From Patiria miniata (Eukaryota), in assembly GCF_015706575.1 (NCBI RefSeq), contig NW_024037076.1, forward strand, positions 22,733,286 to 22,797,285: a stretch of 64,000 nucleotides of DNA, in the 5' to 3' direction. This document shows positions 20,072-58,110 of the stretch, piece after piece (position 1 is the first letter of the stretch; each line of letters opens with the position of its first letter). The position numbers and the translations under genes are program-made. The notes beneath the pieces were generated by a model that saw only the letters and a program-made list of their open reading frames with translations, did no database searches and was not told the DNA's origin.

Positions 20072-20267
20072 CTATTGAGTTGGGAAGCCAGTATGCATAT
20101 AATTTCCTTGGGTTGAGTTAGGAGTCATGAGTCCTCTACTGGGAGCCATTCCTTGTCCGAGGGCCGAGATTGGTTGAGTTTGCTGGGCGTACTGTGTCTG
20201 TTGAACACCTTGTCCTTGTGGGAATTGACTCTGAACGTATTGCCCTTGCATAACCATACCTGACGCC
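20072..20267 (-). CDS. TIA1: TIA1-like terminal exon encoding (Q)ASGMVMQGQYVQSQFPQGQGVQQTQYAQQTQPISALGQGMAPSRGLMTPNSTQGNYMHTGFPTQ, with the TAG stop at 20072-20074.
   Basis: The acceptor is tcatttacag. The terminus GFPTQ* resembles human SGYRVAGYETQ*. It coincides with ORF track entry 20072..20257. Confidence 0.8.
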
Positions 20268-20399
20268 CTGTAAATGAGAACAAGAAACAGGTCAGATAAT
20301 CACTTGAGGAATCAAACTACCAGATTGAAAAGGAGACACTGGAAAATAAAGACTTGTAAAAGCTATTAACCCTAACCCTCCTCAATCCAACAGGATCCA

Positions 20400-20745
20400 A
20401 CTATTTTACATATATATATCTGTTGGGTCCTGATGGACTGAGCAGTAAACCCCTAGTGTATATTCCTGTTGAAATCTGTTGGACTCAGAAGCCAACTGAA
20501 AACATTCAGAGTCAGATTCTGTTGGGTACTGGAAAATAACGCCAAGTTGGGCTCTGTTGGATCCAGCAGCAAACAGAAAAATAAGCCACAGTTGGATTCT
20601 GTTGGATTGAGCATGCCAGTCAGTTTATATGTTCAGGTACCCAACAACTTGGCAAGTTGGGATGTGTGGGACTGTGTTGGATTGAGCAGGAAACTCATTA
20701 TGAGCGATCGTCATGCTCTGTTGGATTTAGCAGGGTAGTCCTGGG
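20400..20745. repeat. Degenerate tandem repeat of 35-60 bp units built around CTGTTGGAT(T/C)(G/C)AGCAG, with about 7 copies, immediately 3' of the TIA1-like stop codon within the 3' UTR or downstream region.
   Basis: ctgttgggtcctgatggactgagcag, tgttggactcagaagcc, ctgttgggtactgg, ctgttggatccagcagc, ctgttggattgagcatgcc, tgttggattgagcagg and ctgttggatttagcagg recur in series. Confidence 0.55.
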
Positions 20746-21079
20746 GAACTACTAGGGGGTTAGATGAATGAGGTAGAACCACCATCACATGTAGGTTGCA
20801 TCAATTCAAGGGTTGTGATAACCCCCTAGTGCCACCAAGTGTCAACTGGTGTCACACCCCACCCCCCAAAAAAATCCCAATCTCTGGCAGACAGAAACCA
20901 TTTAATAGAGAAATTATTGTACAAGGCTAGCATAATACTTCCGCCATTGAAAGGGCCAATAGAAATGATCGTGTGCCGGGATTGGTCTAGACTGCCCACA
21001 TGATGTGTCACAATTTCCTTACATAAATTGTCTAACAGTAGCAACACCGATCTTGACCAATATCTACTCTATGTCCTTA

Positions 21080-21264
21080 CTGTGGATAGTTGTAGTAGTA
21101 CGTGGCCTGTGTTGATGGCGTCATCTGCAGATATTGTTGCTGTTGTTGACTGGCTTGGAACGGTTGGTTGAAATACTGCACATAGGGTTGGCCAGTCTGC
21201 TGCGTTTGTTGCACTGCCTGCTGCGGGTAGGAGGCAAAGCTCTGATATGCATACTGTTGCTGCT
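21080..21264 (-). CDS. TIA1: TIA1-like Q/Y-rich exon (prion-like low-complexity domain): QQQQYAYQSFASYPQQAVQQTQQTGQPYVQYFNQPFQASQQQQQYLQMTPSTQATYYYNYP(Q).
   Basis: The acceptor is ttgttacacag and the donor is gtaagg. The composition matches the Q-rich C-terminal domain of TIA1. Coordinates from the printed sequence are 1 nt lower than those implied by the supplied ORF track entry 21077..21292, so the true span may be 21081..21265. Confidence 0.7.
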
Positions 21265-22343
21265 GCTGTGTAACAAACGACAAACAGGACAACGTTTGGT
21301 GTAGGTAATCTAGCTTTACTTCATTGAAACACTTTGAAGAAAAAGTTTGTACATGCAGATGTCAGGTGGTGAATTAAAATTTGCTCATCAAACATTTTCT
21401 GGACATTACCACATTTGTTCCTGCAAATATGGGCTTACAATTTTTTTAAGGTTTTTTTGTTCACAGGAAATGCATTATTAGGCAGTGCAGAATTTCACAC
21501 CCTGCATGTCACACTCTCACAGGTCAAATTTGATTGAGCTAGTTCATTTTGGTCTAACTTCAACCCTCTGAGAGATTGGTAGGGTATACCTAGATATGGA
21601 TATTTTGATATCGGATGGGAGCTTGAATTCTACTCAGTTCCTATTCATCACAAATGAAATCATTCTTCTACAACTAATGACATGATTTTCTAATTCACAA
21701 CAAAGATTGACATAAAATTTAAAAGATGGTTGTTTAAGGGCAGAATTTTTTTTAAATCTTTGTGGAAAACAGGTCAGATTTGTGATAAATGTAGGAGTCA
21801 CTGGAAACAGCTTTGAGGTTGAACTGAAGGATTTATAGAAAGGACATGGACCAATATAAAACAGCATTTATACTGCAACAAATCATTTCAATTGCTAAAC
21901 GATTACCCTTTCAGCTCGTGTGCATGACAGATCTGATGTCCATAATGGATTAATCCCTTTCCATTTTAAGTGATTAATTCTGTTTTGGCCAAAACTGGAC
22001 AAGCAATTTCCATAATAGGTAAAAGGTTCATATTTCATATACTGTATTCTATCAAAACAAATGGTGAAATATTGTCTATGCAAATTTTCAAGGGATAACA
22101 AAAACAGAAGATTGTATGTTTTTCTAAAAAAAAAAAAGTACAGTGAATGAAATTATACTGTACAATTCCTAAATATTTCACTTTCATTTCTGATAAAAAA
22201 AAGAAAATTCTACCAACGCTATTTTTGCAGGTAACTTCCTAATTCTGTCAAAATTCACTAATTTGATACACATTTCAAGTGCAACTTTTATAAATAATTC
22301 AAGTTTCTCTTAACAAAATCAAGCAGAGCTAAAACTAATATCC

Positions 22344-22453
22344 CAGAAATTTGTCAGAATATAAAATGAAGGGCTGGAGTCTTCAGCACTGGAAAGATTA
22401 ACAGCCATCTTAAAGGGGAAATTCCCCTGACAATCCTTTTTCATCATATTCTG
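22344..22453 (-). ncRNA. Candidate intronic box C/D snoRNA within a TIA1-like intron. Box C is ATGATGA (plus strand 22441-22447), box D is CTGA (plus strand 22354-22357), and a 5-bp terminal stem cagaa/ttctg gives a length of about 110 nt.
   Basis: The minus strand reads cttCAGAAtATGATGAaaaagg......tattCTGAcaaaTTCTGgg, and internal ctga motifs could serve as a D' box. The assignment is speculative: no rRNA complementarity could be checked. Confidence 0.2.
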
Positions 22454-25182
22454 AAGACACCCAGTCTCCACACATGTGTTATGTGACGCAGGTGCAAGCG
22501 TTGCTCGGCGGAGCTCACAAACACGTCGCTTGTATTTGCACTAACACCCTACTAGGCTTGTCAGCTGTCAGTACACGTAAGAGCCAATGACAGAGCACGA
22601 AAGGACCCTCCCCCAACTCAATGCTCTCAAGAGGGGACTTATGAAAACAGGTAAAAGGATATCTAATCTAGGAATACACCATGTAAAGTGGTAAAAAGAT
22701 CAGGGATCAAGTACTGAAATTGAGAGGATCAGGCAGATAGAAAGTCAGGATTCAATCAAAATATTTTCATATTTCTTTCAAATTCACTTGAAAAATGAAC
22801 AAATGATGCACAAAATTATCTTTCAATGAGTGAACAATTATTCACTTTTCCTTTATTTTGGAGGTAAGAGCATATGTTTTCCATTCTCCCTGAGCCTTAT
22901 TTATGTGGAATAAAAGAAAAAGCAATTTATATTATGCAGTTACGCTGACTCACTGCAATTTGATTAAGACAACCACAATTTTTATGTCATTTATAATCCA
23001 TTTAAATGATGTATGAAGTAATAAGTATTAAATTTAAATGGGCTTCTTAGAAAATAAAGTGAGTTCAACTTTTCGTCAATATTTCACTAAACATTGACAG
23101 TAAATTCAAACAAAGAATGATAAATTAATGAAGGGAAAGCCAAGTCTTGAATACGAAATGAAATAAGAGAAACACAAAATGAATGAATGCGATTATGAAA
23201 TGGCTTGCAAGAACAAATGCGCAATAAAAGAAACCTATAAAAATGAAAAATCAAAGTTTGGAAAATCTTTCAAATATGACGAACTGTCAGAAATGTTTTA
23301 AAACAAATGAAGAAAAAAAAAGTAACAATTTTAAACTATTTGAAAATACGTTTTTGGGGGGTTTTTTGGAACATTTCTCCAAACTGAGGGATTAAGAACA
23401 AACTTGAGAGATATTGGATTTTGAAAAACAAATTACTTAAAATCAAAAATCTTACCAAATATGTTAAATAAATAAAAGATATTTAAGACTAAAAAGACAC
23501 ATAAATGCTAAAAAAAAAAAAAAATTGTAAATGCGAAGGAATCAAATAAAAAGTAAAAATGAAAAAAAATTCAAGAAATTTATATAATGATGGGTTGCTT
23601 TTCACATTAAATTTCTGTATGTCATGTCTAAGAAAAAGGCAACATCTGGAAAACTAATTATAGCCAATAATTGAAAGCAACATGCTCCCTCCCAGAAACA
23701 AGACTACACAAGCACACGTGTTAGACGTCCTACACCATCCTTTGAATTTTCTTCGTGTAGTTCATGTCAGACCACTGCACTTTTTCCTGATTACTTCCCA
23801 TCTCTCCTCCTCTTACTCACGTCAATCACAAATTTCTTGCTTGACTCCACAACACCGAGAGAAGTCGTCATTTGACCAGGCGTGATATTCCAGGCTCTGA
23901 TACCATGAAAGGTAGTCAGCGTTATCGACCAATGAACAACTCGGGATATGCACGGACTACAAATGAACGGATGGATAGGTGTTGCAAGCAAAAGAGACCA
24001 GTCTTATTAAGTTTGATCTTAATAATTGGAGGAAATAGGGATGTGGGGGGGAAAAAGGGGCCGAGAAGTTGCTCTTAAGGAGTCCAGGTCCATTTTTTTT
24101 CACAGACTATCTGAGCATAAGATGTATTTATTTATGATGATGTCCAGAAACTGATGATGAAATAATTTGATTATGACTGATTTTCTACTCTTAAGAAAGC
24201 ACTGTTCTAAAAGCAGCAGCTAGGTAATGTTAAATCTAATGAAATTAACATTTCAAATGCCGATAAAAACGAGCACTGGAAAAATAAAACATCAAATAGA
24301 AAACAAGTGACAAGTTCAAAGTAGGTCAGGTTGAATCTCTGAACCAGAAAGATTTACCCCCAAATATTTGACGGCAACCTGATAAGACTATAGAGTCTAT
24401 GCTTCACATATTTCCCTCCCTATCAACTGGTTATATTCCAAACTCTCCTTGGTCTACTAGTTGGGTTGTATCTCTGTATTCCAGCCAAGGTATGGCTGCT
24501 TGACTGAAGCAATGACCCAAGGGAGGAACGGAACAGCTCGCAACAGTCTTTCACACCTTGCAATCAAATTGCCTTGCCGAGCCTACAATGTGCCAACGGA
24601 ATAACCTGACGCTTCAAGTGTAGAGCACCGCTGAAGGGGGGAAAGGAAAGGGGGGGTAGGGATCGCTTGCAATGATAGGCAACGAATTCAAGAGGGTATA
24701 CGACCATACCGGACATAAACAGCTCAATTCTCAATTTCTCAGTTGTCACTCAGGAAAACCTCCAAGTGGAAAGCAATGATAACAGTTTGTTCCCCAAACC
24801 ATCAGTAGCTATCAAAGCTTTCTATGTAGACATCGCAATATCCGACAAACAACTGGCTAGTCAGGAACAAGACATGGATATTTCAAGCTGCACAAGGCTC
24901 CACGTTGTACATGTAATTCCAGTTTTAATGGAATTAACACCGAATATCAAAAGAACAAATACAGTGATTTGTGGGAAAAGCTGAATGTCTACATGCATAA
25001 TTACCAGTCTGTACACAGGAAAGAAACGATTTTAGAAACACTTCAATTTGCTGCTGTTTCACAAAATAACTCATCTTGTCTGCCACCATGATGTATTCTA
25101 ACCTTAAAAAACTGGTGACAATTTAATTTTGAACTCAAACAGATATATACATGTATTCTTTGCAACCTTTTTTATGTCATAC

Positions 25183-25306
25183 CTGGACATGAGATGAAGG
25201 TTCTGACGGTGTTTCTTTCCCCCACGAACATTTGACTTTATAGTTCCCCACAAGTTGACTGTGTACGCCAACTATTGCCCCAGTTGCTTCTTCATGTGAT
25301 CCAAAC
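25183..25306 (-). CDS. TIA1: TIA1-like exon encoding the end of RRM3: (R)FGSHEEATGAIVGVHSQLVGNYKVKCSWGKETPSEPSSHVQ.
   Basis: The acceptor is gtctttag and the donor is gtatga. The sequence matches human [34 protein letters not shown]. Confidence 0.85.
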
Positions 25307-25881
25307 CTAAAGACAAAATAACAAAATACTTAACATTTTACCAATTATTGGTTAAGGATTCATGATAATTTCTAAAATAGCTTAGTTATGAAAAATTGGA
25401 CTATCATATAAAACTGGAAAAAAAAATATTAAAAACCAAAGGGCAAACTGAATAATTGTTTATAAAATTATGACAAAATTTATTCAGAACGATAGCTGCA
25501 ATACTCCAACATAAATAAGTATTAAATTATAACCCAAACTCAAAAGAGTAAGGAACAGAACTATACAAAAATTATCAGCTTTTTATTTCAAGGATTTTCC
25601 TAAATTCTCGACTGACTTTGAATTTTCACTTAATTCCATCAGGCATATGAACTTTGCAGTCATTTAGGTTACGGTTCATTTGACGACTCGATCATTAAAA
25701 TCTATCGAGCGCTGGCCTGTACTTAATACCTTAGGACTATAATCAATAGGGGTAAATTAGCATGAATGGTGGCTTCATGGCGTATCTCATGCATGTGACT
25801 ATGGATAGTCAATGTTATTAGCTCTCTGTCGGCAGAATGTCAAGCTTTTTCCTCCAGCCTTCTTCCAGTATGTCGACTTAC

Positions 25882-25966
25882 CGAATAAATGCGTAACCTT
25901 TCTCTGGAAATTGCCTTATCTCTTGTATGGTACCGTAGTCCTGAAACCTTTGACGTAGTAACTCCT
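25882..25966 (-). CDS. TIA1: TIA1-like exon encoding the RRM3 RNP1 region: (E)[27 protein letters not shown].
   Basis: The acceptor is caacag and the donor is gtaagt. The sequence matches human [30 protein letters not shown]. Confidence 0.85.
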
Positions 25967-26496
25967 CTGTTGAACACAAAAACAAGACATGAAAGGAGTC
26001 CATCAGATCGCAGTGTCGGCCGAGATTAATCTGGGAAAAATCCTGAAAAAAAACTGCCAGGTTTTGTGGAAGAATTCACAAAAGCAGTTGAATTCAGAAT
26101 GACATCGGCTGGATTTATATCTTGGTTTCTGAGTGCAGGTTATTGGATTATTTTCATCAGGGTCTCTATGATTCAATTATTGATGAAAACTGGACAATAA
26201 AATACTCCACCTTCAAACTCCAAAAGGGTCTGATGATACAGAGAGGTCTTATTTTCTAAAGCCAGACCAAGAATAACCTTCCCCTAAAACATATCTTAAC
26301 TATTCTTAGCTAAAATTTGGACATTAACATTTGTACAAATATATATATTCACAAGACAATACAAATTTAGCTAATTTTTCTGGCTTGTTTGATTGTAATG
26401 GTAATTTTTCTACTATTACAATAATATTAATTTTTTTAATGTATTTACTGTTCTCATGTTTATAACTTCTGAAAAATATGATTCCTAGTAACATAC

Positions 26497-26580
26497 CTGA
26501 CATTCCATTTTGAATACCACCGCAGTATACCGTACAATTGTTGACACTTGCTTGATTATAAACATCCTCGCGTGTCTTCA
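26497..26580 (-). CDS. TIA1: TIA1-like exon encoding the linker and the start of RRM3: (M)[27 protein letters not shown].
   Basis: The acceptor is aattttgcag and the donor is gtatgt. The sequence matches human [26 protein letters not shown]. Confidence 0.85.
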
Positions 26581-27176
26581 CTGCAAAATTAGAAATTTAG
26601 TCATCAACTTACTTAATTAACTGATCAATTTTACAATTGAATACATCATCTCAAGATTAAAGCAATTACATGTGACCCTGAGCACTTAACTTGCAGAAAA
26701 CCTGTTCAGAATTACGATTCAATAAGCTCATGAGATAGAATGGTTCTGTACACCACCATCTCTATCATAGTAAAACAGCAAAACAGAAAGATCTGTAAAT
26801 GATTTGAAGCATGAAATTCGAAGTAAAATGAACAAAGTAAAGTGGCCCCAGCTCAATGCAGCCAAGACATGACTTGACTATTGCTTGCCATATTCTATCT
26901 CAAGTTTCTCAACATATTTTGAGAATGGAAAAATATTCCAAGAATACACCAGAAGATTTTGCGGAGTTTAGGAAAGTAGGGCCCATCCATTACAGATTAG
27001 GAGGTTAATCTGAAATGCAGAGGATTTTGGAGTAATCTGAAAAGTTTCTAGCAAAATTGTCACTGAATAAAACAAGTAATCTACTTTCTTTGGGCTCAAA
27101 AGTATATCAAAATAAAAACCGAATGAGGCAAACTATATGACTCGGTGTAATAAGTACAAGAAGCTTTGTGACTTAC

Positions 27177-27279
27177 TCTCAATTTTCTGCTCTGATGGTT
27201 TACGTGAGGCCCAGTTCGTACGAATGACTTTACCTCCCAATTGCTGACCATGCATTCTCTTCATCGCATTTTTGGCCTC
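27177..27279 (-). CDS. TIA1: TIA1-like exon encoding the end of RRM2: EAKNAMKRMHGQQLGGKVIRTNWASRKPSEQKIE.
   Basis: The acceptor is tttttatcag and the donor is gtaagt. The sequence matches human [30 protein letters not shown]. Confidence 0.85.
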
Positions 27280-28233: not shown

Positions 28234-28312
28234 CTCTTCTTTTTCAAAAGAAACAAAACCGTATCCTTTTGATCGATTCTCTTTTGTAGGATCTCGCACT
28301 ACACGTGTGTCT
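28234..28312 (-). CDS. TIA1: TIA1-like exon encoding the RRM2 RNP1 region: [26 protein letters not shown].
   Basis: The acceptor is ctttgcag and the donor is gtaagt. The sequence matches human [26 protein letters not shown]. Confidence 0.85.
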
Positions 28313-37300: not shown

Positions 37301-37356
37301 AAGTGAAAGAAAAAAAGAAAACGTCATAGATGTTTTAAGATTTTGTTGATACTTAC

Positions 37357-37444
37357 GAAACGGTTCCATAAGCTGAAAAGGCGTTATAGAGATCAGCTGT
37401 CTCAACTGAAGGGTCTAAGTCACCAACAAATATATGATGATGAC
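37357..37444 (-). CDS. TIA1: TIA1-like exon encoding the start of RRM2, including the RNP2 motif: (G)HHHIFVGDLDPSVETADLYNAFSAYGTV(S).
   Basis: The acceptor is ctgcag and the donor is gtaagt. The sequence matches human [29 protein letters not shown]. Confidence 0.85.
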
Positions 37445-40400: not shown

Positions 40401-40961
40401 TTGCTGTAGTTAACAAACCGTGACGTTTTCCTGTGAAGTTATGGATGACATCTTCTAATTACAACCGTACCAAGTGCAAATTTTAATAAGCAACCAACTA
40501 CATGTAGAACATTAGGTTTACTGGCCCCACTTCCCCCTCTTCTATCTATATTAATGAGTATTTGGCAGTCCTCTGTCAACTTTGGAGAGGTGTTAATACA
40601 TACAACTGTCCACTAATGAACAGGGCATACTACTTACTGACCTAGCAAGTTAATTTCGTGTCATCTGTGGCATCAGCAACCTGATTAAAATGTCAGTTTC
40701 ACTGCAGGAAACCATCAATACATCTTCTTCCCTCGTCTCTCAAATTGTCAAAGGAAACTCAGTGCATTTAGACCGTATACTTCATTGTCTACAGTCTTTT
40801 CATCAAAGCCACTGCACTTCACCCCAGGCAGGAAATGCACAATGCATACTAACTTCAAATTTATAAAATGAAATATCTTTTAAACAAGCCTAAGCACGTA
40901 AAAGCAATCGGACCCAAGAATGTCACTTTAGGACATTATTTATGCTTAATGACTCAGTCTT

Positions 40962-40997
40962 TCAGTCAGTCAGTCAGTCAGTCAGTCAGTCAGTCAG
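40962..40997. repeat. (TCAG)9 tetranucleotide microsatellite.
   Basis: The plus strand reads ttcagtcagtcagtcagtcagtcagtcagtcagtcagtcg. Confidence 0.9.
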
Positions 40998-41959
40998 TCG
41001 ACTTTGTCAGAGGACAACTAGCCAGCCCTTCTGATCCAGAAAAAAAACAGAAAAACAAATTTCAGAATGCTGAGGCCCATTGAAAAAACATCAATTTTCA
41101 ACCAAATTGTGAAACAGGTGCAATAACGCTTCCATTTCAACGTGAAGTACTTTCCGTCCATTAATACAAGCAGCTTTACCCCAAGTATATAATGGTGAGA
41201 ACAAGCTTCAACATCCCTCCGGATACAAATAAGACCTTAGTGACTATTAAAGATAGGATTCAGCGTAATTACGGAGCGGTAATATCCCTGTCATGAATAT
41301 TTCAAGACAAACAGACGATGGGTCAGTCTTTTTCTCATGGTTTGATGAGGTTTGCAAGGAAGACGAAAGGTGTGACTTCAAGCAGAGATGACCCGCAAAA
41401 CTCATCGACTAGGCCGGTCCAAGGGAGGTGACATGGCGTCTAAATAGCGCCATCGGCATACCCCAGCAATTCCCAAAAGTCCCAGGTAGCTTGAGCGCTT
41501 GGTGTGAAAATGGACTGATACTGCATGCAATGCCAAACATCCACGAGATAATTGCAGTTTCGACCAAGGCATAACAATTCAAGGATTCCATCTAGTTCTA
41601 TTATATTTCTTTCTCCAGATAAATTTCCATTTTGATAGATGTAAGTAATTCTCATTACTCTGGTAATGATAATTGCTGCAGATTATGATGTGAATGACAA
41701 ACGCTCTCCGCCTTCTGAAAATTTAATCTGCTTCTCACTTTCAGCCCCAGAATGATTTTTTTTAATATTCCAATTCTGCTGGCCTTATAAGTTCAGTACT
41801 TTGTATTACTAAATTGTGGAAATATTTTTATTTTTTTTGTTCTATATCCTGAATATTCAAAAGGAATAATAAAAGTTATTCACAAATGTAATCAACGAAG
41901 ATAACACGGTAATCAATTCCTTATTTTCCTTTTAAAAATCATACAAGTTTTTTTATTAA

Positions 41960-42336
41960 CCCTAACTTTCCCAAATCCTCCAAAAGATCCTTGCAAAATG
42001 GAGGATTTTGCAGGATTGAGGCTATATGGCCAAACTGTGTGGCTGATTTTGGAAGATGCACTGTGTCAAGGTGTTTATGCTCAACCATGCATAAATTTAG
42101 GCCTACATGTAGATTATACTTGAAATCCTCAGCACTGTTCCAGGATGTCACTGGCTCTGCCTCAACATGTACTGACAGTGATTGCTGGAGGATTTTGCAG
42201 GATTGAGGCAGTGGTCACCCCTCCAAGGTCCACATTCAAGATACAGTATAACGTAGGATTCTGCAGCATTGAGGCTGTGCAATTTTTAACATGGAGGCAG
42301 TTGGAGGATTTTGCAAAAATGCCTAGGGAGTTAGGG
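41960..42336. mobile_element. piggyBac-type MITE of about 377 bp. It has terminal inverted repeats CCCTAACT(T/C)(T/C)CC and is flanked by TTAA at 41956-41959 and 42337-42340. Internally it contains three to four tandem subrepeats GGAGGATTTTGCAGGATTGAGGC.
   Basis: The left end reads TTAA|CCCTAACTTTCCCAAATCCTCC and the right end reads GGAGTTAGGG|TTAA. piggyBac-superfamily elements insert at TTAA and begin with CCC..GGG. A second, partial copy is at about 62158-62230 and 63250-63300. Confidence 0.6.
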
Positions 42337-45300
42337 TTAAGAAAGTTGAGGGACTAGCCAATAATTTGTGTACATTTCCATGGGCAAGACAAATCTCAGC
42401 CAAAGTTTGACTGTATATTAAAGTTTGTATGCAATGCATGACTAGATTACTACCCAGAATATTTTCTGACCTGGTGCCTACAGCACAACCCTATTGTTTC
42501 ATGCATGCTGCATCTTGCATGAGGGGAAGTGGACAAAATCGTGTCCGTGCGTTCAATTTGAGCACGAGATAGAGACTCTGGAGATGTAAAACGCCAACAA
42601 ACAATTCCACCTGACATTTACACCCGTCCCTCTACAGGTAACCCAGACCGCATAAACACTATGCTTCAAAAGACAGCACAGGGACAAAGCGAAATGGGAC
42701 CTGATTAGTAGTAATTGTGCTCCCTGAAAGAGAGCCCGGCAAAAATCTAAAGAATAATCTCAGAGGAAAAGTGCAAATCCAATTTCCATTGGTAATAGGC
42801 CGCTCATCTAATAATAGAGTCAAGATAATTGGTCTGAGGCTGTGAGAGGGTAACGGGGTATAACTAGGAAGTGGCCTGCTGCCCCGATCAATGTTAACTA
42901 CTTCATCCATCAACCGACACCACTGACGTCTGCACTAGTCATATTATTGTCAGTATTCTGCTGGATATCGGGAGTAGATTCAGAGAAGCTGTCACTGAGA
43001 GTCAAACTCAGAGTTGTTTGTATCCTTTCTCAGCGGCATGAAGCAAACACCTGCTGAAGTGTCTCTTCAGGGAAGACTCAACCACCTGATGGTTGGAATA
43101 CTTCAATAATGCAACAAGCTCATCAGGGGGACCACACTTCATCCGTGCATGCTGGCCTCGCATTCAATAAAGCACCCAATGGAGAAATAACAAGCTTCCA
43201 GATGCTACTATGAACCATTACTTCCAGTAATTTACCCCTCACAGCAACAAGCCCACGGATAATACACAGGAAGAAATTGCTGGAGTATTAATCAGTCAAT
43301 GTCATTAAGTGCGCATCAGTTTCCCTTTCAAAGCGTTTTACCACATCCCAGCCATCACGAGATACTCTCATCATTACATGTAAAGGTGGTTCAAAAGTGG
43401 TCAAATTACAACATCTCATATTTCCAATTCCAGAATTGACAAAAACTTAATTAAAATATTAAATTTAGTTTGATTCAAAATAATTTTTTTAAAAATACAA
43501 TTTATCAACAAAGCTGCCAAGCTGCCAAAACAGAAAAGATTTTCTTAGCTAAAATGGTTTACCAGCTACAATGTCATACGACATATATTGCTACTAACTG
43601 GTACTCTGCCCGTTTCCTCTTTTCACGTAAATTTACATGCAATATTCTTTGCATAAAAGCCCATGAAACTGGGTCCAGGTTTGAAGTTACGTAAATCCCA
43701 AAGTGTTCAGAAAACTAGGTCACACGATCTCATTTCCCAGCAACTCCCCTCAGACATCAGTCATGCTCTCCCCACAACCCTTCCGATCTATTTTTAGCAT
43801 CCCAATAATTGCCTAAACGACCTTTCACAATGTCTGTATTCTGATAGACCTCTAGCTCGGTCTTTTACCACGTTTAACTGTGAAATCTAACAGCCGAGTC
43901 TCCGCGTGGCTAATGTACATGGGTATTATTTGAACCAAGTGGAGTGGAAGGGTTCACCATCTAGAGAGAGGTGGCCACGTCTCTAGTCATTCTCAAAACA
44001 CCTCTGAGGATTGAGACAAACCCTCTCAAAACACATCTTATATTCCTTTATTTGTCTAACAAATTGCCACTTTATGCAGATGGGAAATGTCTATTTGGAT
44101 TCTATCAAGATCTTTTCAAGAAGCAATTTTTTTCTTCAAAATTTATGGATGAAGTGCGTGAACATGTACATTTGTATAATAATTGAGCAGTACGTATGTA
44201 AGTTGAAGATTTTCCATTTGTACGGTAGCGAGTGTTCCTTACAATATCATAAAGATGCAGAAATGCATCTGCACAAAAACTACAGGAAGATTCCCAAAAT
44301 ACAATCAAGACAAGAAACGTACTCTCCAGATAAAACCAAAGGCCTTATGATCACATGAACTCCTGCAGTAGTGACCATCAAGTACCCCTGGTGTCCTGAT
44401 GGCAGGGTACCAGGGTACCAGCGTACCAGTCATTTTATGACCGAGTGTGTATAAATCATACGGACACTGAGACAAGTTTTTGCATGGTTCCCTGTTTGCC
44501 TGGTCCCATCTATCAAACATCCCATCCATACTGACAAGCAGTGTGATTAATTGCTCTCTTCTCGCTTTGGTAATGGTATAGACGAGACTTGTTGACGCAC
44601 ACAACTTCCAAATGATATCGTATTTTCAACGTAAAAAAGCTATCAGCATGTGATTTTCTTCTTTTATAGCAGTACCAATGCTTCCTGTACATCTTCAGAC
44701 CTGCACTCTGTGAGGCTGTATGATTGACAGGTGATAATGTCATACGTACGTGTGCATGTGCATTCAAAGCAGGTGCAAATGGTCAATGGGTGCAGATGAA
44801 TGGTGTCTAAGACAATTCTTACATCCGGCTTGTACCGTATGCCACCGTGCCATAATCACATTTTCCTTTTAATCTGTTAAGTGGAATAGTTATGTCTATA
44901 GTTTTTATGAAGGCCTACATGTAAGGAATAAAGTACAGGGAATACTTTCATGACTTTCTCAGCCACCTGCAGTCCTGCACACACACAATAAGTGATACTA
45001 TTTCTTCTAAAAAAAAATAGTGAACATACCTGAGAAAAAAAAGTCACATGTGAACGAGACCTATAAACCTCTAATATCCTCGGGAGAAACTGGATGTGCT
45101 TGGCCAGAGTCTCAATATTGACTTGGTGGTTCCAGGTCCCATAATACCAATTGGCATAGCATCTTGAGACCCACATTCATAACATCCTAATTATGTTTGT
45201 AAAGGTCTAGAATTACACTCAATCTATACACTGCTTCATTCTATTTCTTGTTCCCGTCTCTCGGGAAAGAGGCTGAAACCGCATCTTTGCGACATGCTGC

Positions 45301-47497
45301 ACGCTCATTTCCCTGTCCTGTGTGTCACTAATAGGCTTTATTCACGAGTCGGCCATATTAAATTGAAAGCGGGGTAACTTCTTCATTGTTACAACTTGTG
45401 AATTTATAGAAATGAAAGCAATGACATCAAGTTAATTACAAATAAATACCAGTCTGCTCTGATGAATAATTGAAATTTGTGATTAAACATATTTGTACCC
45501 TAATATTTTCAGCTACATTTCAAAAGACAATTTTAAATTGAGGCTTGGAACGTATAAATAGTCTGGCACCGTCCCATTCAACATTTTAAAATGTATAAAA
45601 TCCCTTCAGGGAACATGATCAAAAATGGCTGCCTCATGAATCAGGTCTATTCAAACACCCAACTCATTTTCATTTTAAATAAAATATGCTGCCTCAATGA
45701 AAATCTCAGAACAGTAGTTTTATCACTGTATATTTCTTTGTAGAAGTTTAGCTTATTTAAGGTCACTTTGTCACATTGCCTGTCACATATTTTTGTGGTT
45801 TTTTTTATCTGAAATTTTTTAGACAACTTCGTAAACTTCATATCTGCAATGACAAGAGTGTACAATTTGGACTCATTTGGGCAATTTTTAAACAGTATGC
45901 AAATAATGGGCGTGATGATTATTACCCCCACTAGACTCTAGATCTAGATACAACCCACAACCTCCAAAAAGAAAAGGAAAAGAAACAATGTTGCCACTGA
46001 TTAGTACTCATAAATATTTCACAACATCTGACCATATCCAAGGTGCAATTAAAACTGTGCAATGTGTCCCCCCTCGCATCCATGGTCATTTGCTGGCAAC
46101 AGAGATCTAATTGAAACATCCCATCTCCAAAACAACACTGACTGCACAAGAGATGACAGCCTGAATGAATAAATGGAAATGCAGTCTTTCTTTTTCCTTT
46201 TTTTTTTTTTAACTGACCTATTTCCTAGGTTTCTGACCGCAGTTGTCCTTTTGTGTGGCACCGACTCTAGCATTATCAGTACCCATCTCCAACCATCCAT
46301 TTGAAGGCCTTTTATTCCTTAGCATCTTCCATCCTTTTTAGATGATTAATGATGGAGAGTGTCTTAGCATGGAGCAAGAAAGGAGGAAGGAATTCCAACT
46401 TGTGTTCTATGCTCTTTCGGTTTTAGGCCAATCATAACAAGTCAGACCCAAAAAAATGTTCTTTGATGGCTCAAATTGTTTTTAAATTCAGAAAATAAAG
46501 ATGGGTTTCATTAAAAGGTGGCTTTCAAGATTTAAAGTACGATTAAATGCCAAAGTGCGATATGTACAGTAGACTGTAGTGAATCTGTTATTAAATAATT
46601 AATAAATAGGTGAAAAAATTTACCTGAAATAATCTGACGTTGAACTGTTGATAAAATACAAGACAAAATTTAAGATCTGGAAATGGGCAATGACACAAAA
46701 CTTACACAAAATATATCAAATGTTTCTCACACAACTGTCCAGAAATATGACAATTTGTTTTTAAAAACTACAAGTGTATTGTACCCCGGTACTAGCTGAC
46801 TACATGTAGTGGCCATAATACAGATTGAACACTGGTACACTGGTTCTGTTTTGAAAACTTTAATGTAACTCATCGAGTACCGATTAAATGCCTTCATTAG
46901 ACCACATTAAAACAATGCGCTATGACTGGGGTGCCATCTCTGGGGAAAGCTGTTCTATGAAGGGGCAAATGTTCTATAGTGATTACATGTATATGAAATG
47001 TGTTTCTTCATGAGGACTGTATTGATTCACACCTCAAAGCACTGAGCAAAGCAAACAATAAAAGCCTGACCATTATTATTTCGGGGCGTTTCAGTAATTC
47101 AATTTCTATTGCCTTCATGGAGTATAATTCTCCCACATTGTAAGTTTTTATTTCTCACTGCAGACCAACCCCAATCCCCCACCCCTTACCCCCCAACCAA
47201 CTGATCATCCTCTGCTGGAACGACTCGCCCCTTGACATCTCAAGAGTTATACCTCCAATGTATAAGTGGCATATCATGTTAACGTGGTCTAGTACCGTTC
47301 ACCAAAGTCTGTCCAAGCATAATTCATGAGAGGGGTTTGATTTCTCGTCCGTGAAGCCCCCCTCTCGGACAGTCAATTCAAACTCCCCTCGGATGTTGAC
47401 AAGCTCTCCATAGTGATGTTGTGACATGATTAATACACCACCTGCCAACCTCTGAAAAGTCCTCTGGAATAATTTCAGACGGACAACAAACTGACTA

Positions 47498-47802
47498 TGA
47501 TCAAAACCCCTGGGGGGGGGGGGGGATAGGAAGGGGAAGGGGTGTGAAGTACCTGAGGTCAAAGGTTACTGAATAAACAGAGTCAAAGACTGTTCTGTTA
47601 TTGGATAAAGAGGACATCGGCGATGTCATAACCGGAATGGACCAGTGATGATGATCAAAACCCCTGGAGGGGTGGAAGGGAAGGGGGAAGGTTGATTTGA
47701 AGTACCTCAGGTCAAAGGCCGTTGTGTCAACGAGATTGTGGAGTCTCAGACTATTCTTTTATTGGATAAGGATGACATTAGTGACATCACAACTGTCATA
47801 AA
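47498..47802. repeat. Tandem duplication of two units of about 150 bp. Each unit starts tgatcaaaacccctgg, followed by a G-run and then ggaagggg, and contains gaagtacctgaggtcaaagg and ttattggataa.
   Basis: Unit 1 at 47498-47648 and unit 2 at 47651-47802 are about 75 percent identical. Unit 1 contains a G14 homopolymer at about 47512-47526. Confidence 0.6.
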
Positions 47803-50800
47803 GTCTGCGTTTGAGGGGAGCTTAGTTGCTAATAACACACATGTCAAAGAAGCTTTTACAGGTATCTCAAAATAAGACAGAGAATTATGGGGAGGAGGTT
47901 ATTCAAAACAGAATCCAATTCACATTGGCTTGTGGGTATTGAGGTTGGTCATTTGTAACAACATGCCAGATGAAGACTGTCTAGACATTAAGCTTGCACT
48001 GAATCCTAGTAACATAGATGGGATAAACACTGTCAGTGTTACTTCCCTGACTGACACTGTTTTGTTTTGGTGCTGGATGTCAGGATGTACATGTAGTCTA
48101 CAAGGTGCCTCGATGTTGTAATGTACTGTATAATTTGTCTTATCTTCAAAACGAGTCCAAAACTGGGTTATCTATGGACGCTCTGGTAAATTTAATCACA
48201 TAAGGGTTATTTTAATGTTGGATGTTCATAATGTAGCAATTGAAAGTCACACATGAGCAGAATTGTTTTCAAGTTCACAACATGGGAGGAGTCTAGGCAG
48301 CATGGAGGAGGGAGGAGTTCACGTCAACGTCCTAGCACTCTCTTGGGCCATGATACTGTCATCCTGAAGCATATGATCGCAGTCAAGGAGGCAATCAAAA
48401 CTGTCGACAAATCACTCCCAGTCCAAACTCTCCATGGTCTCTCGGCAGATCACAGCCCCCCAAGTCCAAGGGTCAACCGTGAAGTAGCGATTAAGACGAC
48501 CCGTAATAACATCCACGACAGTCATGTCCACGTCTAGATTGTCAATCAGTACTTTTAACGATGCATTTATTTGTCCTTTACGCGCTACAGATGATCATTA
48601 GATTGTTGTCTACATGTATACGCAATAAATCCTTTCCGATATGCAAAAAGTGGCTATATTTTATGCGTTTACAACTTCAAGTATGACATGGAGCGCACTG
48701 GATGATATATGTCGGTATTAAAGCAATTTGTGATTGCAATATAGATCAAGCAGGCTAGTGGGCTTGCTACATTGTATGTATTTTTATTGGTATACAATGA
48801 TCAGACAGCTAAATGCATCCTGATTGCAATAAAAATAATACTAGTTGGCTTTTCAATGGCTGCACTTCTATTATTCAATGAGGAAAAAAATGAGACGAAA
48901 AATTGAAAACAAGCTTAAGCAGGTGTATGCTTTGCCTTTGGGGGTCAAGCATACCGTAACAAGCTGAATAACTGAATGACAAATTGTGCTGTTATCAGGA
49001 AAATTGCCATTTACAGGTAGATGACACTCCATTCATTTTCCAACTTCATTTTCTTCTCATGAATAAATAAAAAAGGGGACAAATTGAAACCTGCAAAATG
49101 CATGCCAGAAAAAACAAAAAAATTTTGAATAGACTGCTGTTATAATGAAGGTAAGGGAGACTGACTGTGTGTACATGTAAAAGAGAATTTGAAAATTAAG
49201 TATGGCCACTTTTTTATCAAACAAAATTGTTGTTGGACAGATTTTACTCAGTGATTTTAGGCCTTCATGTTAAGGCAAGTTATTGTTACATGCACACAAT
49301 CTAAATGCATTGGGTGCATTTTAAAGCTGATATACATGTATTGGCATAAAGGTACCGGTACTTTGTCAGATATGCTACACATGTACATGTACACGCAGAC
49401 TGTTCAAATGCATCTGACACAGACAATTTTCGAATGTAAATAAACATACATCTCTGCATACAGTTTACTGCCTGAAAGTACCCTTCCTACCCCCTACGTA
49501 CCATACTCAAATTTGCAAAAGAGCAAAAATTGTTTTTGGCAGAAACATCACATTTACTCATATCAAACAGATACAATGCACAATGGTCACAATTTCTAGT
49601 TTTGACTTTCATGCACTGCAAATATTATCTTCACCTGACCTAGAATCAAGGTCACACAAAGTGATGCATTATGGGTACACTTCGGTAAATACGCAATACA
49701 ATTACCTACCAGTGTGATAGACATTTCATGCCTCAACTTCTTTTTAATAGAATTATGAGAATGGTGCTCTTGAGGGATTATATGAAATGGATAGAAAATC
49801 CTAAACCCGGAACAAAATACACGTACATGTAGCCCACAACAAAGTCCTCTTTAGCTACGCAATAGAAAGATTGCATGCACCTTTTACATGTTTTAGGTAT
49901 TGTGCTTCTTATTAATACAGTTTCAGAGAAACTGTACTGAAATATGAACAATGTTCCTAACACACAGGTACTAGTAGTTCAGCACCATTCTGCTCGACCT
50001 TTCCAAACATCCATAACAAAACAATTATAATCAAAATTAAAATTAAAAAAAACCAGACCAATAGTCATCCTTATTTTAAAGGTAATATGCAATGTTTTTT
50101 TTTTCTTTTAATTTTCAAAAATTCATGGATTTTGGGGGTTAGTATTATTAGTTGGTATTATTTTATAGCAATTTTTGTTACACTGACGTGTTTAAAGTTT
50201 AATGATTAAAGATGCTGCAAAAATCAAAAAAAAAATTGCTGTTCTTGTACATGTGTAGTCTGGTTCCCTTTACTTCTGATGAGACGGAGCATAGACGTCA
50301 GAGAATTGTCAGGTCAGGGAAGCTGACTAGCTGGCTTGCACCCGTTCACGAATGTGTAATCGATTGCAAACAAAATGTGGGCTTACTAAATTTGGTAACT
50401 TGGTGGCAGTATTTGGAAAAAGTCAGTTTTTTCCAACGATACTTGGTTGACCATCATTAGAAATTAATGAAAACAATTCCACTTTTCTTAAAAAATGGCA
50501 GCAAACCTGATGCCACGATTTCACAGGATGCTTGAGACTATTAGTCACTTGTAGTCTAGTAGGTTATTTCATAATAATTTGGTAGTTTTGTCTTTTGATG
50601 TTAGAATTACCTTTAAACTACAATTAGTATTTTGTTTGTCCTACAATGTACCTGGGTGCATACCGGTACCTACATGTACCTGGTTTGTAATCTCTGCAAT
50701 ATTTACCGTTCACTACATGCGCATCATGCATAACAGTATGTTGTCTAACGATACAAACACCTAGGTAATTATAAAAGCCTGGTTTCAGACTCTCCTAACA

Positions 50801-51487
50801 CAGGCCCCACACTAAACAATGTTACAAACTAGCCAGCAACCAGACTCAAGTCAACCAACTAACTACCAAACCATTTTCCTTGCCCAGCCAGAACGCCGAC
50901 ATCTTTGATTTCCTTCAAACCAAGAACGCAGTGACAGGGTGTAATTTAGCGACAGATGCTCGGACCAATAACGTCGTCTTATCCATCCCTCTTTGGTTGC
51001 CGAATGAGTTACATCCATGGAGTAGATTTCTGGCAGTTTCATCGCTCTAACAGTGCCAATGACAACTACTATACTAATGATCCCCAATACACACAATTAC
51101 TGTCTACTTGTTGTGATGTCTGTCACTGTTACATCTGTTGAATACGATGGTTTGTGTGAACGTAGACAGTGGGGTACATTTATGCACAATATGACTGAAT
51201 GAATGCAAGTATGGAGTACTAGGAAAAAGAGACAAACTAAGCAAACATCAACAAATGAAAACAGTCTGTAACATGAAACAAAAAACAACAAACAAAACAA
51301 AAAGGACTATTCTGAGATTTAGCATTCTTTTCCTTTTTGAAAGGTGAATATATTTCTGTCAATATTTTTTAAAAAATGATTAATTAAACTCGGAAGCATG
51401 TCATCATTCGCGACTCATGTACAAGCACAAATAGTAGGAGTAAATCAAACCTCATTTATTCTAGCAGGGTTCCAGTTTAATACTTAC

Positions 51488-51539
51488 CACTGGTGTCTCT
51501 TTTTGCACTTGGTGTAGTCGCCCAATTTACTTTGATATC
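51488..51539 (-). CDS. TIA1: TIA1-like exon encoding the RRM1 C-terminus [17 protein letters not shown](G).
   Basis: The acceptor is tttttcatgcag and the donor is gtaagt. The sequence matches human [20 protein letters not shown]. The trailing G joins GT of the next exon to make a glycine codon. Confidence 0.8.
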
Positions 51540-51729
51540 CTGCATGAAAAAACAACAATAAACAAAAATAGTAGTTAAAGTACAAAAATCCAAAAGCAAC
51601 AGTAGTTGCAAACATCATAAAAATATCAATGATAACAAAACTTTATAGACAGGAATCAGCCATGTTATTGTGGAAGTACGGTAGTGTTCACCATGTCCAG
51701 TAAGCAATGAGAAATAAACCTTTGGTTGT

Positions 51730-51800
51730 CTGAGGCAGGACTCGAACCCATAACCTACTGTCTACAAATGCAGACATCGGAACCCTTCCTCATCAACTCA
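51730..51800 (-). mobile_element. tRNA-derived SINE head of the same family as the element at 10425-10497, lying in a TIA1-like intron (B-box GGGTTCGAGTCC).
   Basis: The sequence is similar to the other tRNA-like copy (atctgca..gcag.aggt..tgggtt.gagtcc). It is not a foldable canonical tRNA. Confidence 0.4.
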
Positions 51801-52724
51801 AACTGGATGTACACTGTAGCCACATTTCGTTGGAATTTCAAATAGTTGGCACAGCTTTGAAAGATGTGGTAAAATAGACATTGTACAAGAACATTTTCAC
51901 TAACCATTTTGAAACAAGATCCAATAGTTTGTGGGATCCTGTAGGTTTGAGGACGATATATCTCTTGTCCATTATTGGATTGGTTGCATTCAAGAGTGAC
52001 ATATTGGTGAACATTTGTTGGTTAAACGTTTGAGGCTTTTTTCTCAACTTGTACATGCTATGCATTGTACTACTTCGCTGATTGGATACAATAAATATTA
52101 CCGTATGGCACGTGCAAACTTCTTTCATTTAATTGTACAGACCATTATAATAATTTTTGAAAGGAGACACTGTGTATGTATGTTGAGTTATTGTCTTTAT
52201 CCATGAATGATTTATAGAAATGGTTTACTTCAGGCTGTAATGTATTAATTACTGGATGTTGCTGGTATGTGGAAATTCCCTTTGCTGTTCATTAAATGCT
52301 GGTACGTGAACAGCTTTATGCATGTAGACCATCAATGATTGCTTTCCTATGCTACCATACCAGCACACTCTAAATAAAACTAAACCCTAAAAGATAATGA
52401 CCATAATCATCATCTGCTTATCATAAAATAGTCTGCGGTAGATTAACAGGTGCGCTGTAGTGCAACGTGGCATTTCACATTACCATATATGACAACAGGT
52501 TGTTTTTGAGATAAATTGAAACCGAGCCGGACCCAAAATGACTGCAGCCACAGCTGTTTCAACGATAACCATTCCCAACACAAACTCATACAACTCAGTT
52601 TTTTTTTCCCCTTCTTTTTAAATCTATAACCAATATTGCTAGAATCTACACAGACCTCCACACTCTAAACAGTTAGGGTTTAGCTAGAGGCTTGACAGAC
52701 GTTAAGCTTGAGGGGGCTTTTTAC

Positions 52725-52753
52725 ACGAGTGCACCCACAAAGAGCTTTTTCAT
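52725..52753 (-). CDS. TIA1: Tentative first coding exon of the TIA1-like gene. It starts at the ATG at 52751-52753 and encodes MKKLFVGAL(V), matching the RRM1 RNP2 motif KTLYVGNLS. The donor is gtaaaa or gtgtaa.
   Basis: The motif resembles the human TIA1 N-terminus MEDEMPKTLYVGNLS. A CpG-rich putative promoter lies immediately upstream at 52850-53050. The donor is weak and the following exons were not located. Confidence 0.35.
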
Positions 52754-57749: not shown

Positions 57750-58110
57750 CACAGGGATTCAGAATTAATAGAATTTTCGGTCTCAGGAAATGCGGTATCA
57801 ATCTCTATCAGCAGGAGGGTATGCCAGGCTACTGACTACAATACGGACTACCGGCTAAAAGGCAGATCAGTATAGCGTGTATTACAAGGGGTACAATCGA
57901 GCATAATAAGACATCCAGTTTCATTAGCCGGTACCCTGTCAGGATGGTTGAAGCGGTCGGTTTTACTTGATCGTCGGTCGGGCTCCGAGGCAATAAGGAA
58001 CTGGGATATTACGGCAATGCTTGATTGATGACGGTATACGGAGACTACACCTCAATATTACCTACGCTATTGCCGCTGCTTTTGCCAGCATGGCCAGCGA
58101 GTGTTTACTA
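57750..58110. other. CpG-rich segment with GC of about 50 percent and no CpG depletion, in otherwise AT-rich DNA. It contains an inverted repeat ccggctaa/ttagccgg.
   Basis: The segment has many CG dinucleotides (tacggactaccggctaaaagg..gcggtcggttttacttgatcgtcggtcgggctccgagg..). No ORF of 60 aa or more lies within it. Confidence 0.4.

What the first reader, a model, noticed from the sequence alone, without database searches (positions are those of the whole stretch)
20072..52753. TIA1/TIAL1-family gene with giant introns and a Q/Y-rich prion-like tail
Ten exons on the minus strand encode the end of RRM1, all of RRM2 and RRM3, and a C-terminal domain that is about 45 percent Gln plus Tyr (QQQQYAYQ...YYYNYPQ...QGQYVQSQFPQGQGVQQTQYAQQ). 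This domain is the type that drives stress-granule assembly in TIA1. The introns of about 9 kb and 14 kb carry the MITE, SINEs, a microsatellite and CpG-rich segments.
Basis: partly seen in the sequence, partly recalled or inferred. Interest (0 to 1): 0.5.

Follow-up and report, generated by a model that had tools for sequence, protein, structure and literature searches.

The report
Sea star TIA1/TIAR gene, already annotated
This is the 3' three-quarters of the bat star (Patiria miniata) gene for its TIA1/TIAR-type RNA-binding protein, a gene already in RefSeq whose glutamine-rich tail is typical of the family, so the finding is correct but ordinary.

Summary
Nine minus-strand exons (51539-51488 down to 20267-20072) all have GT-AG borders. 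They join into an uninterrupted 331-aa reading frame: the last strand of RRM1, RRM2, RRM3 and a 126-aa Q/Y-rich tail.

Every exon is 100% identical to the Patiria miniata RefSeq proteins "nucleolysin TIAR-like / TIA-1-like" isoforms X1-X5. A spliced transcript contig from another sea star maps onto the same nine exons.

Corrections:
The real RRM1 exons lie beyond the window end.
- The "14 kb intron" holds a 21-nt alternative micro-exon (46644-46624, VQRQIIS) at the position of human TIA1 exon 5.
- The exon at 21265 has a NAGNAG acceptor.
- Q+Y in the tail is 40%, not 45%.
- The gene is neither TIA1 nor TIAL1. It branches before the vertebrate duplication.

Among the intron contents, a TTAA-flanked piggyBac-like MITE and a (TCAG)n microsatellite are confirmed. 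The CpG-rich patches are weak. The SINEs could not be verified.

Prion-like tails are already reported as deeply conserved in this family. The finding is already known and of low interest.

The parts
51488..51539 (-). Exon encoding [17 protein letters not shown](G), the last beta-strand of RRM1 plus linker. It corresponds to human TIA1 exon 4.
   Evidence: Borders are ...catgcag| and |gtaagt. The exon is 100% identical to P0001 residues 99-115. L001 transcript bases 256-311 map here.
46624..46644 (-). 21-nt alternative cassette micro-exon encoding VQRQIIS. It enters and leaves in phase 1 and sits in the RRM1-RRM2 linker, at the position of human TIA1 exon 5.
   Evidence: Borders are ...atcaacag|TTCAACGTCAGATTATTTCAG|gtaaat. 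It is included in RefSeq isoforms X1, X2, X4 and X5 and skipped in X3. Acanthaster has VHRQIIS at the same place.
37357..37444 (-). First RRM2 exon, encoding (G)HHHIFVGDLDPSVETADLYNAFSAYGTV(S). It contains the RNP2 motif.
   Evidence: L001 bases 309-390 map here, directly after the 51488 exon.
28234..28312 (-). Second RRM2 exon, encoding DTRVVRDPTKENRSKGYGFVSFEKEE. It contains the RNP1 motif.
27177..27279 (-). Third RRM2 exon, encoding EAKNAMKRMHGQQLGGKVIRTNWASRKPSEQKIE.
26497..26580 (-). First RRM3 exon, encoding MKTREDVYNQASVNNCTVYCGGIQNGMS.
25882..25966 (-). Second RRM3 exon, encoding [28 protein letters not shown](R).
25183..25306 (-). Third RRM3 exon, encoding FGSHEEATGAIVGVHSQLVGNYKVKCSWGKETPSEPSSHVQ.
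21081..21265 (-). First exon of the Q/Y-rich tail (62 aa, 53% Q+Y). It has a NAGNAG tandem acceptor (cag|CAG), so the exon can start at 21265 or 21262.
   Evidence: Isoform X2 has one Q fewer at exactly this junction.
20072..20267 (-). Last coding exon: the second half of the tail (64 aa, 28% Q+Y) and the TAG stop at 20074-20072. The 3'UTR continues below 20072.
   Evidence: Similarity to the L001 transcript runs on to 19965, about 107 nt past the stop.
51540..64000 (-). Part of the intron upstream of the DIKVNW exon, at least 12.4 kb long. The exons for residues 1-98 (most of RRM1) and the alternative N-terminus of isoform X5 lie beyond the window end.
   Evidence: tblastn and a fuzzy motif search find none of them in 51540-64000. 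L001 bases 1-255 do not map in the window.
52721..52753 (-). I reject it as an exon of this gene.
   Evidence: It shows only a 4-of-7 resemblance to LYVGNLS, like several other chance hits, and a stop follows. It is absent from all five RefSeq isoforms. It lies in a CpG-richer patch (52701-53050) whose reading frames have no homolog.
41960..42336 (+). 377-bp non-autonomous piggyBac-like element (MITE) in the intron between the micro-exon and RRM2. It has TTAA on both sides and termini CCCTAACT... / ...AGTTAGGG.
   Evidence: Sequence. A second copy at 62151-62238 (minus) ends at the same ...TTAGGG|TTAA, and a 5'-end-like fragment lies near 63225-63290.
40954..40999 (.). (TCAG)11.5 microsatellite in the same intron.
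   Evidence: Tandem Repeats Finder score 78, 90% matches.

Best explanation
Identity. The region holds exons 4-13 (human TIA1 numbering) of the single Patiria miniata TIA1/TIAR pro-ortholog, transcribed from the minus strand. Exons 1-3 lie off the window.

Product. The full protein has three RRMs followed by a roughly 126-136-aa uncharged tail that is glutamine-, tyrosine-, proline- and glycine-rich.

Mechanism, inferred from what is established for the family and not shown here:
- RRM2, helped by RRM3, binds U-rich or AU-rich RNA.
- In the nucleus, the protein bound downstream of weak 5' splice sites recruits U1 snRNP through RRM1 and the Q-rich tail.
- In the cytoplasm it represses translation of bound mRNAs.
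- Under stress, the low-complexity tail self-associates and nucleates stress granules.

Isoforms. Alternative splicing gives variants that differ by a 7-aa insert in the RRM1-RRM2 linker (the 21-nt cassette) and by one glutamine (the NAGNAG acceptor). RefSeq also predicts a 9-aa RRM1 variant and an RRM1-less form, both made from exons outside the window.

Introns. The long introns are ordinary for this genome and carry transposon debris.
For: Shown here:
- Nine GT-AG exons give a continuous 331-aa ORF.
- The exons are 100% identical to XP_038045333-37 of Patiria miniata.
- The full-length X1 protein has three RRM_1 domains (6.9e-48). The window-encoded part has two.
- The best solved-structure match is human TIA-1 RRM2-3 (8.7e-58), then TIAR RRM3 and RRM2. 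PUB1 and ELAV score far weaker.
- A spliced 1,779-nt transcript contig from another asteroid (88% aa identity) maps colinearly, with block ends at my exon borders.
- The exon count per domain matches the human gene: end of RRM1, cassette exon, three RRM2 exons, three RRM3 exons, two tail exons. The human layout is exons 1-4 RRM1, exon 5 alternative, 5-8 RRM2, 9-11 RRM3, 12-13 C-terminal domain (PMC8836218).
- Tail composition is Q 0.29-0.30, Y 0.10, charged 0.01, which falls within the range of 24 other family members. It holds 32 Q+N in 80 aa.
- Prion-like composition is reported as deeply conserved across the Pub1/Tia1 family (PMC7169965).
- A neighbour-joining tree places the echinoderm genes outside a 100%-supported vertebrate TIA1+TIAR clade.
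Against: - No Patiria RNA-seq could be examined. Exon usage rests on RefSeq models, homology and one transcript contig from another species.
- The RNA-binding, splicing and stress-granule roles are inferred from vertebrate, fly and yeast relatives. No paper in the searched library mentions TIA1 together with Patiria miniata.
- PLAAC itself was not run. The prion-like call rests on composition and on a Q/N-count criterion that I recalled from memory (Michelitsch and Weissman: at least 30 Q/N in 80 residues).
- The tree is a distance tree on 284 columns, not a likelihood analysis.
Confidence: 0.95

Rival explanations
1. An internal first exon at 52753 (ATG AAA AAG CTC TTT | gtgggt) splices in frame to DIKVNW and gives an RRM1-less isoform. 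It would be driven by a promoter in the CpG-richer patch at 52701-53050.
For: The ATG..TTT|GTGGGT stretch would join in phase 0 to the exon at 51539 (sequence). It lies in the only 500-nt window with GC of at least 0.45 and CpG o/e of at least 0.75. RefSeq does predict an RRM1-less isoform, X5.
Against: The N-terminus of X5 is a different 51-aa sequence that is not encoded in the window. None of the five RefSeq isoforms uses this exon. The peptide is 5 aa long and its resemblance to RRM motifs is at chance level. The surrounding frames have no homolog. The transcript contig L001 does not map there.
Confidence: 0.04
2. The gene is a specific ortholog of TIA1, or of TIAL1, rather than a pre-duplication co-ortholog.
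For: RefSeq labels the isoforms inconsistently: 'TIAR-like' for X2 and X3, 'TIA-1-like' for X1, X4 and X5. The cassette exon sits where TIA1, not TIAR, has its alternative exon.
Against: Vertebrate TIA1 and TIAR sequences, including hagfish, form one clade with 100% bootstrap. Echinoderms form a separate 100% clade. Identity to both paralog groups is the same, 45-50%.
Confidence: 0.03
3. The gene belongs to a different three-RRM family (PUB1/NAM8-like, ELAV/Hu or PABP) and only resembles TIA1 locally.
For: PABP, PUB1, NAM8 and ELAV chains also match the RRMs.
Against: Those matches cover single RRMs at E = 1e-13 to 1e-45. TIA-1 RRM2-3 covers residues 17-194 in one stretch at 8.7e-58. Every listed hit below the four sea star sequences that a source names by family is called TIA1, TIAR or Rox8, and the hits share 44-58% identity with the query.
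Confidence: 0.01
4. The locus is a decaying duplicate or pseudogene rather than the functional gene.
For: Only part of the gene is visible, and the introns are full of repeats.
Against: The ORF is intact and all splice sites are canonical. The exons are identical to the RefSeq models. Identity to the transcript of another asteroid is 88% at the protein level against 75-91% at the DNA level, as expected under purifying selection.
Confidence: 0.01

Closest known systems
Patiria miniata RefSeq gene 'nucleolysin TIAR-like / TIA-1-like' (proteins XP_038045333.1 to XP_038045337.1, isoforms X1-X5)
   Same: All ten window exons, including the micro-exon and the NAGNAG variant, translate with 100% identity to these models.
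   Different: Nothing differs. The window simply lacks the 5' exons. This is the same gene.
Human TIA1 (13 exons; isoforms TIA1a and TIA1b)
   Same: It has three RRMs plus a Q-rich prion-like C-terminal domain. The distribution of exons over domains is the same, and an alternative cassette exon sits in the RRM1-RRM2 linker (PMC8836218). RRM2-3 matches at 8.7e-58.
   Different: The sea star cassette is 21 nt (7 aa) against 33 nt (11 aa) in human. The sea star tail is richer in Q (0.29 against about 0.2), has no Trp and less Gly and Asn. The sea star gene predates the TIA1/TIAL1 split.
Human TIAL1 (TIAR)
   Same: Identity over the RRMs is about the same as to TIA1.
   Different: From memory, TIAR's known alternative insert lies inside RRM1, not in the linker. 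The sea star gene is not a specific ortholog of it.
Drosophila Rox8, yeast Pub1 and the wider Pub1/Tia1 family
   Same: [quoted passage not shown]
   Different: Pub1 matches only at 5.6e-23 over one RRM. According to PMC8836218, the fly and worm tails are exceptions to the Q-rich trend.

Membership tests
TIA1/TIAR (TIA1/TIAL1/Rox8) RNA-binding proteins | Three consecutive RRM domains | tested here: met
   The window-encoded part has RRM2 and RRM3 (Pfam RRM_1, 2 stretches) plus the last strand of RRM1. The full RefSeq X1 protein, identical over the window exons, has 3 RRM_1 stretches. The RRM1 exons themselves are outside the window.
TIA1/TIAR (TIA1/TIAL1/Rox8) RNA-binding proteins | Closest similarity over the full length is to TIA1/TIAR, not to PUB1, ELAV, PABP or another RRM family | tested here: met
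   every listed hit that a source names by family is TIA1, TIAR or Rox8. TIA-1 RRM2-3 at 8.7e-58, against PUB1 at 5.6e-23 and ELAV at 5e-13.
TIA1/TIAR (TIA1/TIAL1/Rox8) RNA-binding proteins | C-terminal uncharged low-complexity Q-rich (prion-like) domain | tested here: met
   Over 126 aa: Q 30%, Y 10%, 67% Q/N/G/S/Y/P and 1 charged residue. The best 80-aa window holds 32 Q+N. The composition lies within the family range. PLAAC was not run.
TIA1/TIAR (TIA1/TIAL1/Rox8) RNA-binding proteins | Gene architecture like human TIA1 (exon 4 ends RRM1, cassette exon 5, exons 6-8 RRM2, 9-11 RRM3, 12-13 tail) | tested here: met
   Exon map, compared with the description in PMC8836218. Exact human intron positions were not aligned base by base.
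TIA1/TIAR (TIA1/TIAL1/Rox8) RNA-binding proteins | U-rich RNA binding, U1 snRNP recruitment and stress-granule nucleation | not testable with these tools
   This needs biochemistry and cell biology. It is inferred from the conserved RNP motifs and from family knowledge.
TIA1 proper (vertebrate paralog) | Groups with vertebrate TIA1 to the exclusion of TIAR | tested here: not met
   In the neighbour-joining tree with 200 bootstraps, the echinoderm clade lies outside the vertebrate TIA1+TIAR clade (100%).
TIAL1/TIAR proper (vertebrate paralog) | Groups with vertebrate TIAR to the exclusion of TIA1 | tested here: not met
   Same tree.
piggyBac-type MITE (for the intronic element at 41960-42336) | TTAA target-site duplication, terminal inverted repeats starting CCC...GGG, small size with no ORF, and multiple copies | tested here: met
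   TTAA lies at 41956-41959 and 42337-42340, and the termini are CCCTAACT / AGTTAGGG. A second copy ends at the same AGGG|TTAA. Only three copies or fragments are visible, and the genome-wide copy number could not be tested.

The most novel reading that the evidence does not exclude
The 21-nt cassette micro-exon in the RRM1-RRM2 linker is homologous to human TIA1 exon 5. It occupies the same DTS|..|HxHxFVGDL junction, enters and leaves in phase 1, has a length that is a multiple of three, and is conserved between Patiria and Acanthaster. If so, TIA1a/b-type alternative splicing would be an ancestral deuterostome, perhaps bilaterian, feature rather than a vertebrate one. An octopus isoform carries a 7-aa insert at the same site.
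Probability: 0.3. Interest if true: 0.3.

Novelty: already known. Interest (0 to 1): 0.08.

Why it matters
It matters little beyond annotation quality. The gene is already modelled in RefSeq, and the prion-like tail of the Pub1/Tia1 family is published as deeply conserved.

The exercise does show three things. The first-stage reader can reconstruct a multi-exon gene across 30 kb almost perfectly from raw sequence. It also tends to add a spurious terminal exon and to miss micro-exons.

The one mildly useful biological point is the cassette micro-exon at the TIA1 exon-5 position in an echinoderm. That position is a convenient test case for how old TIA1a/b-type splicing is.

Tried and rejected
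- Upstream exons. I searched 51540-64000 for the RRM1 exons and for the alternative N-terminus of isoform X5 and found none. I therefore rejected the exon at 52753.
- CpG-richer patch. I tested the patch at 52.7-53.0 kb for coding potential. Pfam gave nothing and the protein database gave no candidate. It stays unexplained.
- Other sea star loci. I tried to fetch the genomic loci of Patiria X1 and X2, Acanthaster and Asterias to compare introns. None is on record by exact product, so intron conservation and micro-exon flanks could not be compared.
- SINEs and RNA genes. I looked for them in 20-64 kb with Rfam at E <= 1 and got no hits. ARAGORN and Rfam find only a tRNA-like sequence at 10.4 kb, outside the gene.
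- Repeats. A long-seed inverted-repeat search found no MITE. The element at 41960-42336 was recognised only from its short repeated motif and TTAA/CCC termini.
- Other candidates. I considered and rejected a PUB1, ELAV or PABP identity, a pseudogene, and specific TIA1 or TIAL1 orthology.
- Literature. A search for TIA1 in Patiria returned nothing.
Full report
**What is in the sequence.** The window is AT-rich (37.5% GC, CpG o/e 0.47) and has the look of an invertebrate animal genome.

Inspecting each block with its flanks, I fixed nine exons: 51539-51488, 37444-37357, 28312-28234, 27279-27177, 26580-26497, 25966-25882, 25306-25183, 21265-21081 and 20267-20072. Every one has a pyrimidine-rich ...ag acceptor and a gt donor. 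The phases are compatible, and the joined 996 nt form one open frame of 331 codons ending at TAG 20074-20072.

**Identity.** The 331-aa product hits Patiria miniata "nucleolysin TIAR-like isoform X2" (XP_038045334.1) at E = 4.4e-213 with 98% identity and full coverage. Acanthaster planci, Asterias amurensis and an unnamed transcript-derived protein follow at 86-88%. Over a hundred further hits follow, at 44-58% identity, and every one that a source names by family is called TIA1, TIAR or Rox8.

tblastn of the Patiria protein back onto the window shows that each exon is identical residue for residue. The 2% difference comes from two splicing variants described below. The window is therefore Patiria miniata DNA, or something indistinguishable from it, and the gene is already modelled in RefSeq with five isoforms.

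- Pfam finds two RRM_1 domains in the window-encoded part and three in full-length X1.
- Against solved structures the best match is human TIA-1 RRM2-RRM3 (2mjn, 8.7e-58, residues 17-194 in one stretch). TIAR RRM3, TIA1 RRM2 and TIAR RRM2 follow.
- PUB1 reaches 5.6e-23 and ELAV 5e-13.

**Transcript evidence for the joins.** No Patiria RNA-seq is available here. However, protein P0002 comes from a 1,779-nt JGI contig with an uninterrupted 1,098-nt coding sequence, so it is a spliced transcript from another asteroid. Its blastn blocks fall colinearly on the nine exons, with ends at my exon borders. Base 311 (window 51486) is followed directly by base 309 (window 37445). RefSeq isoform X3 has the same join.

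   - This resembles the RRM1 start LYVGNLS in only 4 of 7 positions, like several other chance hits in the same 12 kb.
   - It is absent from all five isoforms, and the transcript contig does not map there.
   - Residues 1-98 of X1 and the different 51-aa N-terminus of X5 are not encoded anywhere in the window. The intron upstream of 51539 is therefore longer than 12.4 kb and the gene runs off the window.
2. The "14 kb intron" contains a 21-nt cassette exon at 46644-46624 (acag|TTCAACGTCAGATTATTTCAG|gtaaat), encoding VQRQIIS in phase 1.
   - It is included in X1, X2, X4 and X5 and skipped in X3. Acanthaster has VHRQIIS at the same place.
   - With it, the window does hold ten exons. They correspond one to one to human TIA1 exons 4-13 as described in PMC8836218: exons 1-4 RRM1, exon 5 an alternative 11-aa cassette, 5-8 RRM2, 9-11 RRM3, 12-13 C-terminal domain.
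3. The exon at 21265 begins cag|CAG. Isoform X2 lacks one glutamine exactly there, which marks a NAGNAG tandem acceptor.
4. Q+Y over the two tail exons is 40% (Q 30%, Y 10%). It is 53% in the first tail exon and 28% in the second.

**The tail.** The 126 residues after ...SSHV contain one charged residue and are 67% Q/N/G/S/Y/P. The best 80-residue window has 32 Q+N. That passes the 30-per-80 Q/N-rich criterion of Michelitsch and Weissman, a threshold I recalled from memory.

Compared with 24 other family members, the tail is at the Q-rich end but not unusual:
- Abalone has Q 0.30 and Y 0.10.
- Hemichordates have Q 0.26 and Y 0.13.
- Vertebrates have Q 0.10-0.23 and 3-5% Trp, which echinoderms lack.

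Su and Harrison (PMC7169965) already report that prion-like composition is conserved across the whole Pub1/Tia1 family. The TIA1 review notes the general propensity for Q-rich C-termini. The tail is what one expects.

**TIA1 or TIAL1?** A neighbour-joining tree was built on 284 well-aligned columns from 25 sequences with 200 bootstraps.
- All vertebrate TIA1 and TIAR sequences, with hagfish, fall in one clade (100%).
- The sea star and sea urchin genes form a separate clade (100%), outside the vertebrate clade.

Identity to both vertebrate paralogs is the same (45-50%). The sea star gene is a co-ortholog of both, which also explains why RefSeq names its isoforms inconsistently.

**How it most likely works.** This is inference from the family, not shown here.
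- RRM2, with RRM3, binds U-rich or AU-rich RNA.
- Bound next to weak 5' splice sites, the protein recruits U1 snRNP.
- In the cytoplasm it silences translation.
- The uncharged Q/Y-rich tail self-associates to seed stress granules.
- The linker cassette and the NAGNAG site add small isoform diversity.

**Intron contents.**
- Confirmed: a (TCAG)11.5 microsatellite at 40954-40999.
- Confirmed: a 377-bp element at 41960-42336 flanked by TTAA on both sides, with termini CCCTAACT.../...AGTTAGGG and internal GGAGGATTTTGCAGGATTGAGGC sub-repeats. A second copy at 62151-62238 (minus) ends at the same AGGG|TTAA, and a 5'-end-like fragment lies near 63.2 kb. This is a piggyBac-type MITE.
- Weak: the CpG-richer patches are 200-350 nt with GC of 0.52 or less, at 30.2, 34.5, 39.6, 41.3, 48.4 and 50.9 kb.
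- Not verifiable: the SINEs. Rfam gave no match at E <= 1 in 20-64 kb and the window has almost no internal repeats.

**Verdict.** What it identifies is an already annotated, typical member of a well-studied family. The corrections above refine the gene model but do not make it novel.

The most novel reading left open is that the linker micro-exon is an ancient counterpart of human TIA1 exon 5. An octopus isoform also has a 7-aa insert at the same junction. That is a modest point and needs genome alignments I could not obtain.

Noticed in passing
window 1-14534, minus strand: A galactocerebrosidase (glycosyl hydrolase family 59) gene lies downstream of the TIA gene. Exon 1 with its signal peptide is at 14420-14253. 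GH59 catalytic-domain exons are at 12039-11884 and about 8928-8626, and the start of the C-terminal lectin domain is near 5596-5252 (Pfam E = 5e-24, 1.2e-09 and 2.3e-12).
   Followed up: partly
window 2203-2370 vs 14253-14420; 1-109 vs 12574-12682; 2190-2470 vs 14240-14522: There is a second copy of GALC exon 1 (89% aa identity, with one in-frame stop in the region just past the splice site). There are also 90-99% identical direct repeats about 12.1-12.6 kb apart. Together these suggest a tandem duplicate of the GALC gene starting near 2.4 kb and running off the window.
   Followed up: partly
window 10422-10494, minus strand: A tRNA-like sequence (Rfam tRNA 47.3 bits). ARAGORN reports an abnormal anticodon loop and cannot assign an amino acid. 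It lies inside a GALC intron and may be a tRNA pseudogene or the head of a tRNA-derived SINE.
   Followed up: no
window 52701-53050: This is the only patch in the window that approaches CpG-island composition (GC 0.52, o/e 0.94 at peak). It lies in the TIA intron. Its reading frames have no Pfam hit and no protein homolog, so its nature (young repeat, regulatory element or alternative promoter) is unexplained.
   Followed up: partly
window 62151-62238 (minus) and about 63225-63290 (plus): Further partial copies of the piggyBac-like MITE family seen at 41960-42336. All share the GGAGGATTTTGCAGGATTGAGG motif.
   Followed up: partly
window 47492-47632 / 47646-47793: A local tandem duplication of a roughly 150-nt unit (71% identity) in the intron between the DIKVNW exon and the micro-exon.
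   Followed up: no
window 532-601: A 70-nt near-perfect palindrome (89% self-complementary) at the far left of the window.
   Followed up: no
protein P0058 (Octopus sinensis TIAR isoform X1): It carries a 7-aa insert (RSKLGLG) at the same DTS|...|HxHIFVGDL junction as the sea star micro-exon and human TIA1 exon 5. It was the only sequence outside the sea stars, among the 121 aligned, with a 7-aa insert there; four sequences could not be scored at that junction and one horseshoe-crab isoform differs there by five residues.
   Followed up: partly
window 19965-20071, minus strand: The first 107 nt or so of the 3'UTR stay about 75% identical to the transcript of another asteroid (L001). This hints at a conserved 3'UTR element just after the stop codon.
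   Followed up: no
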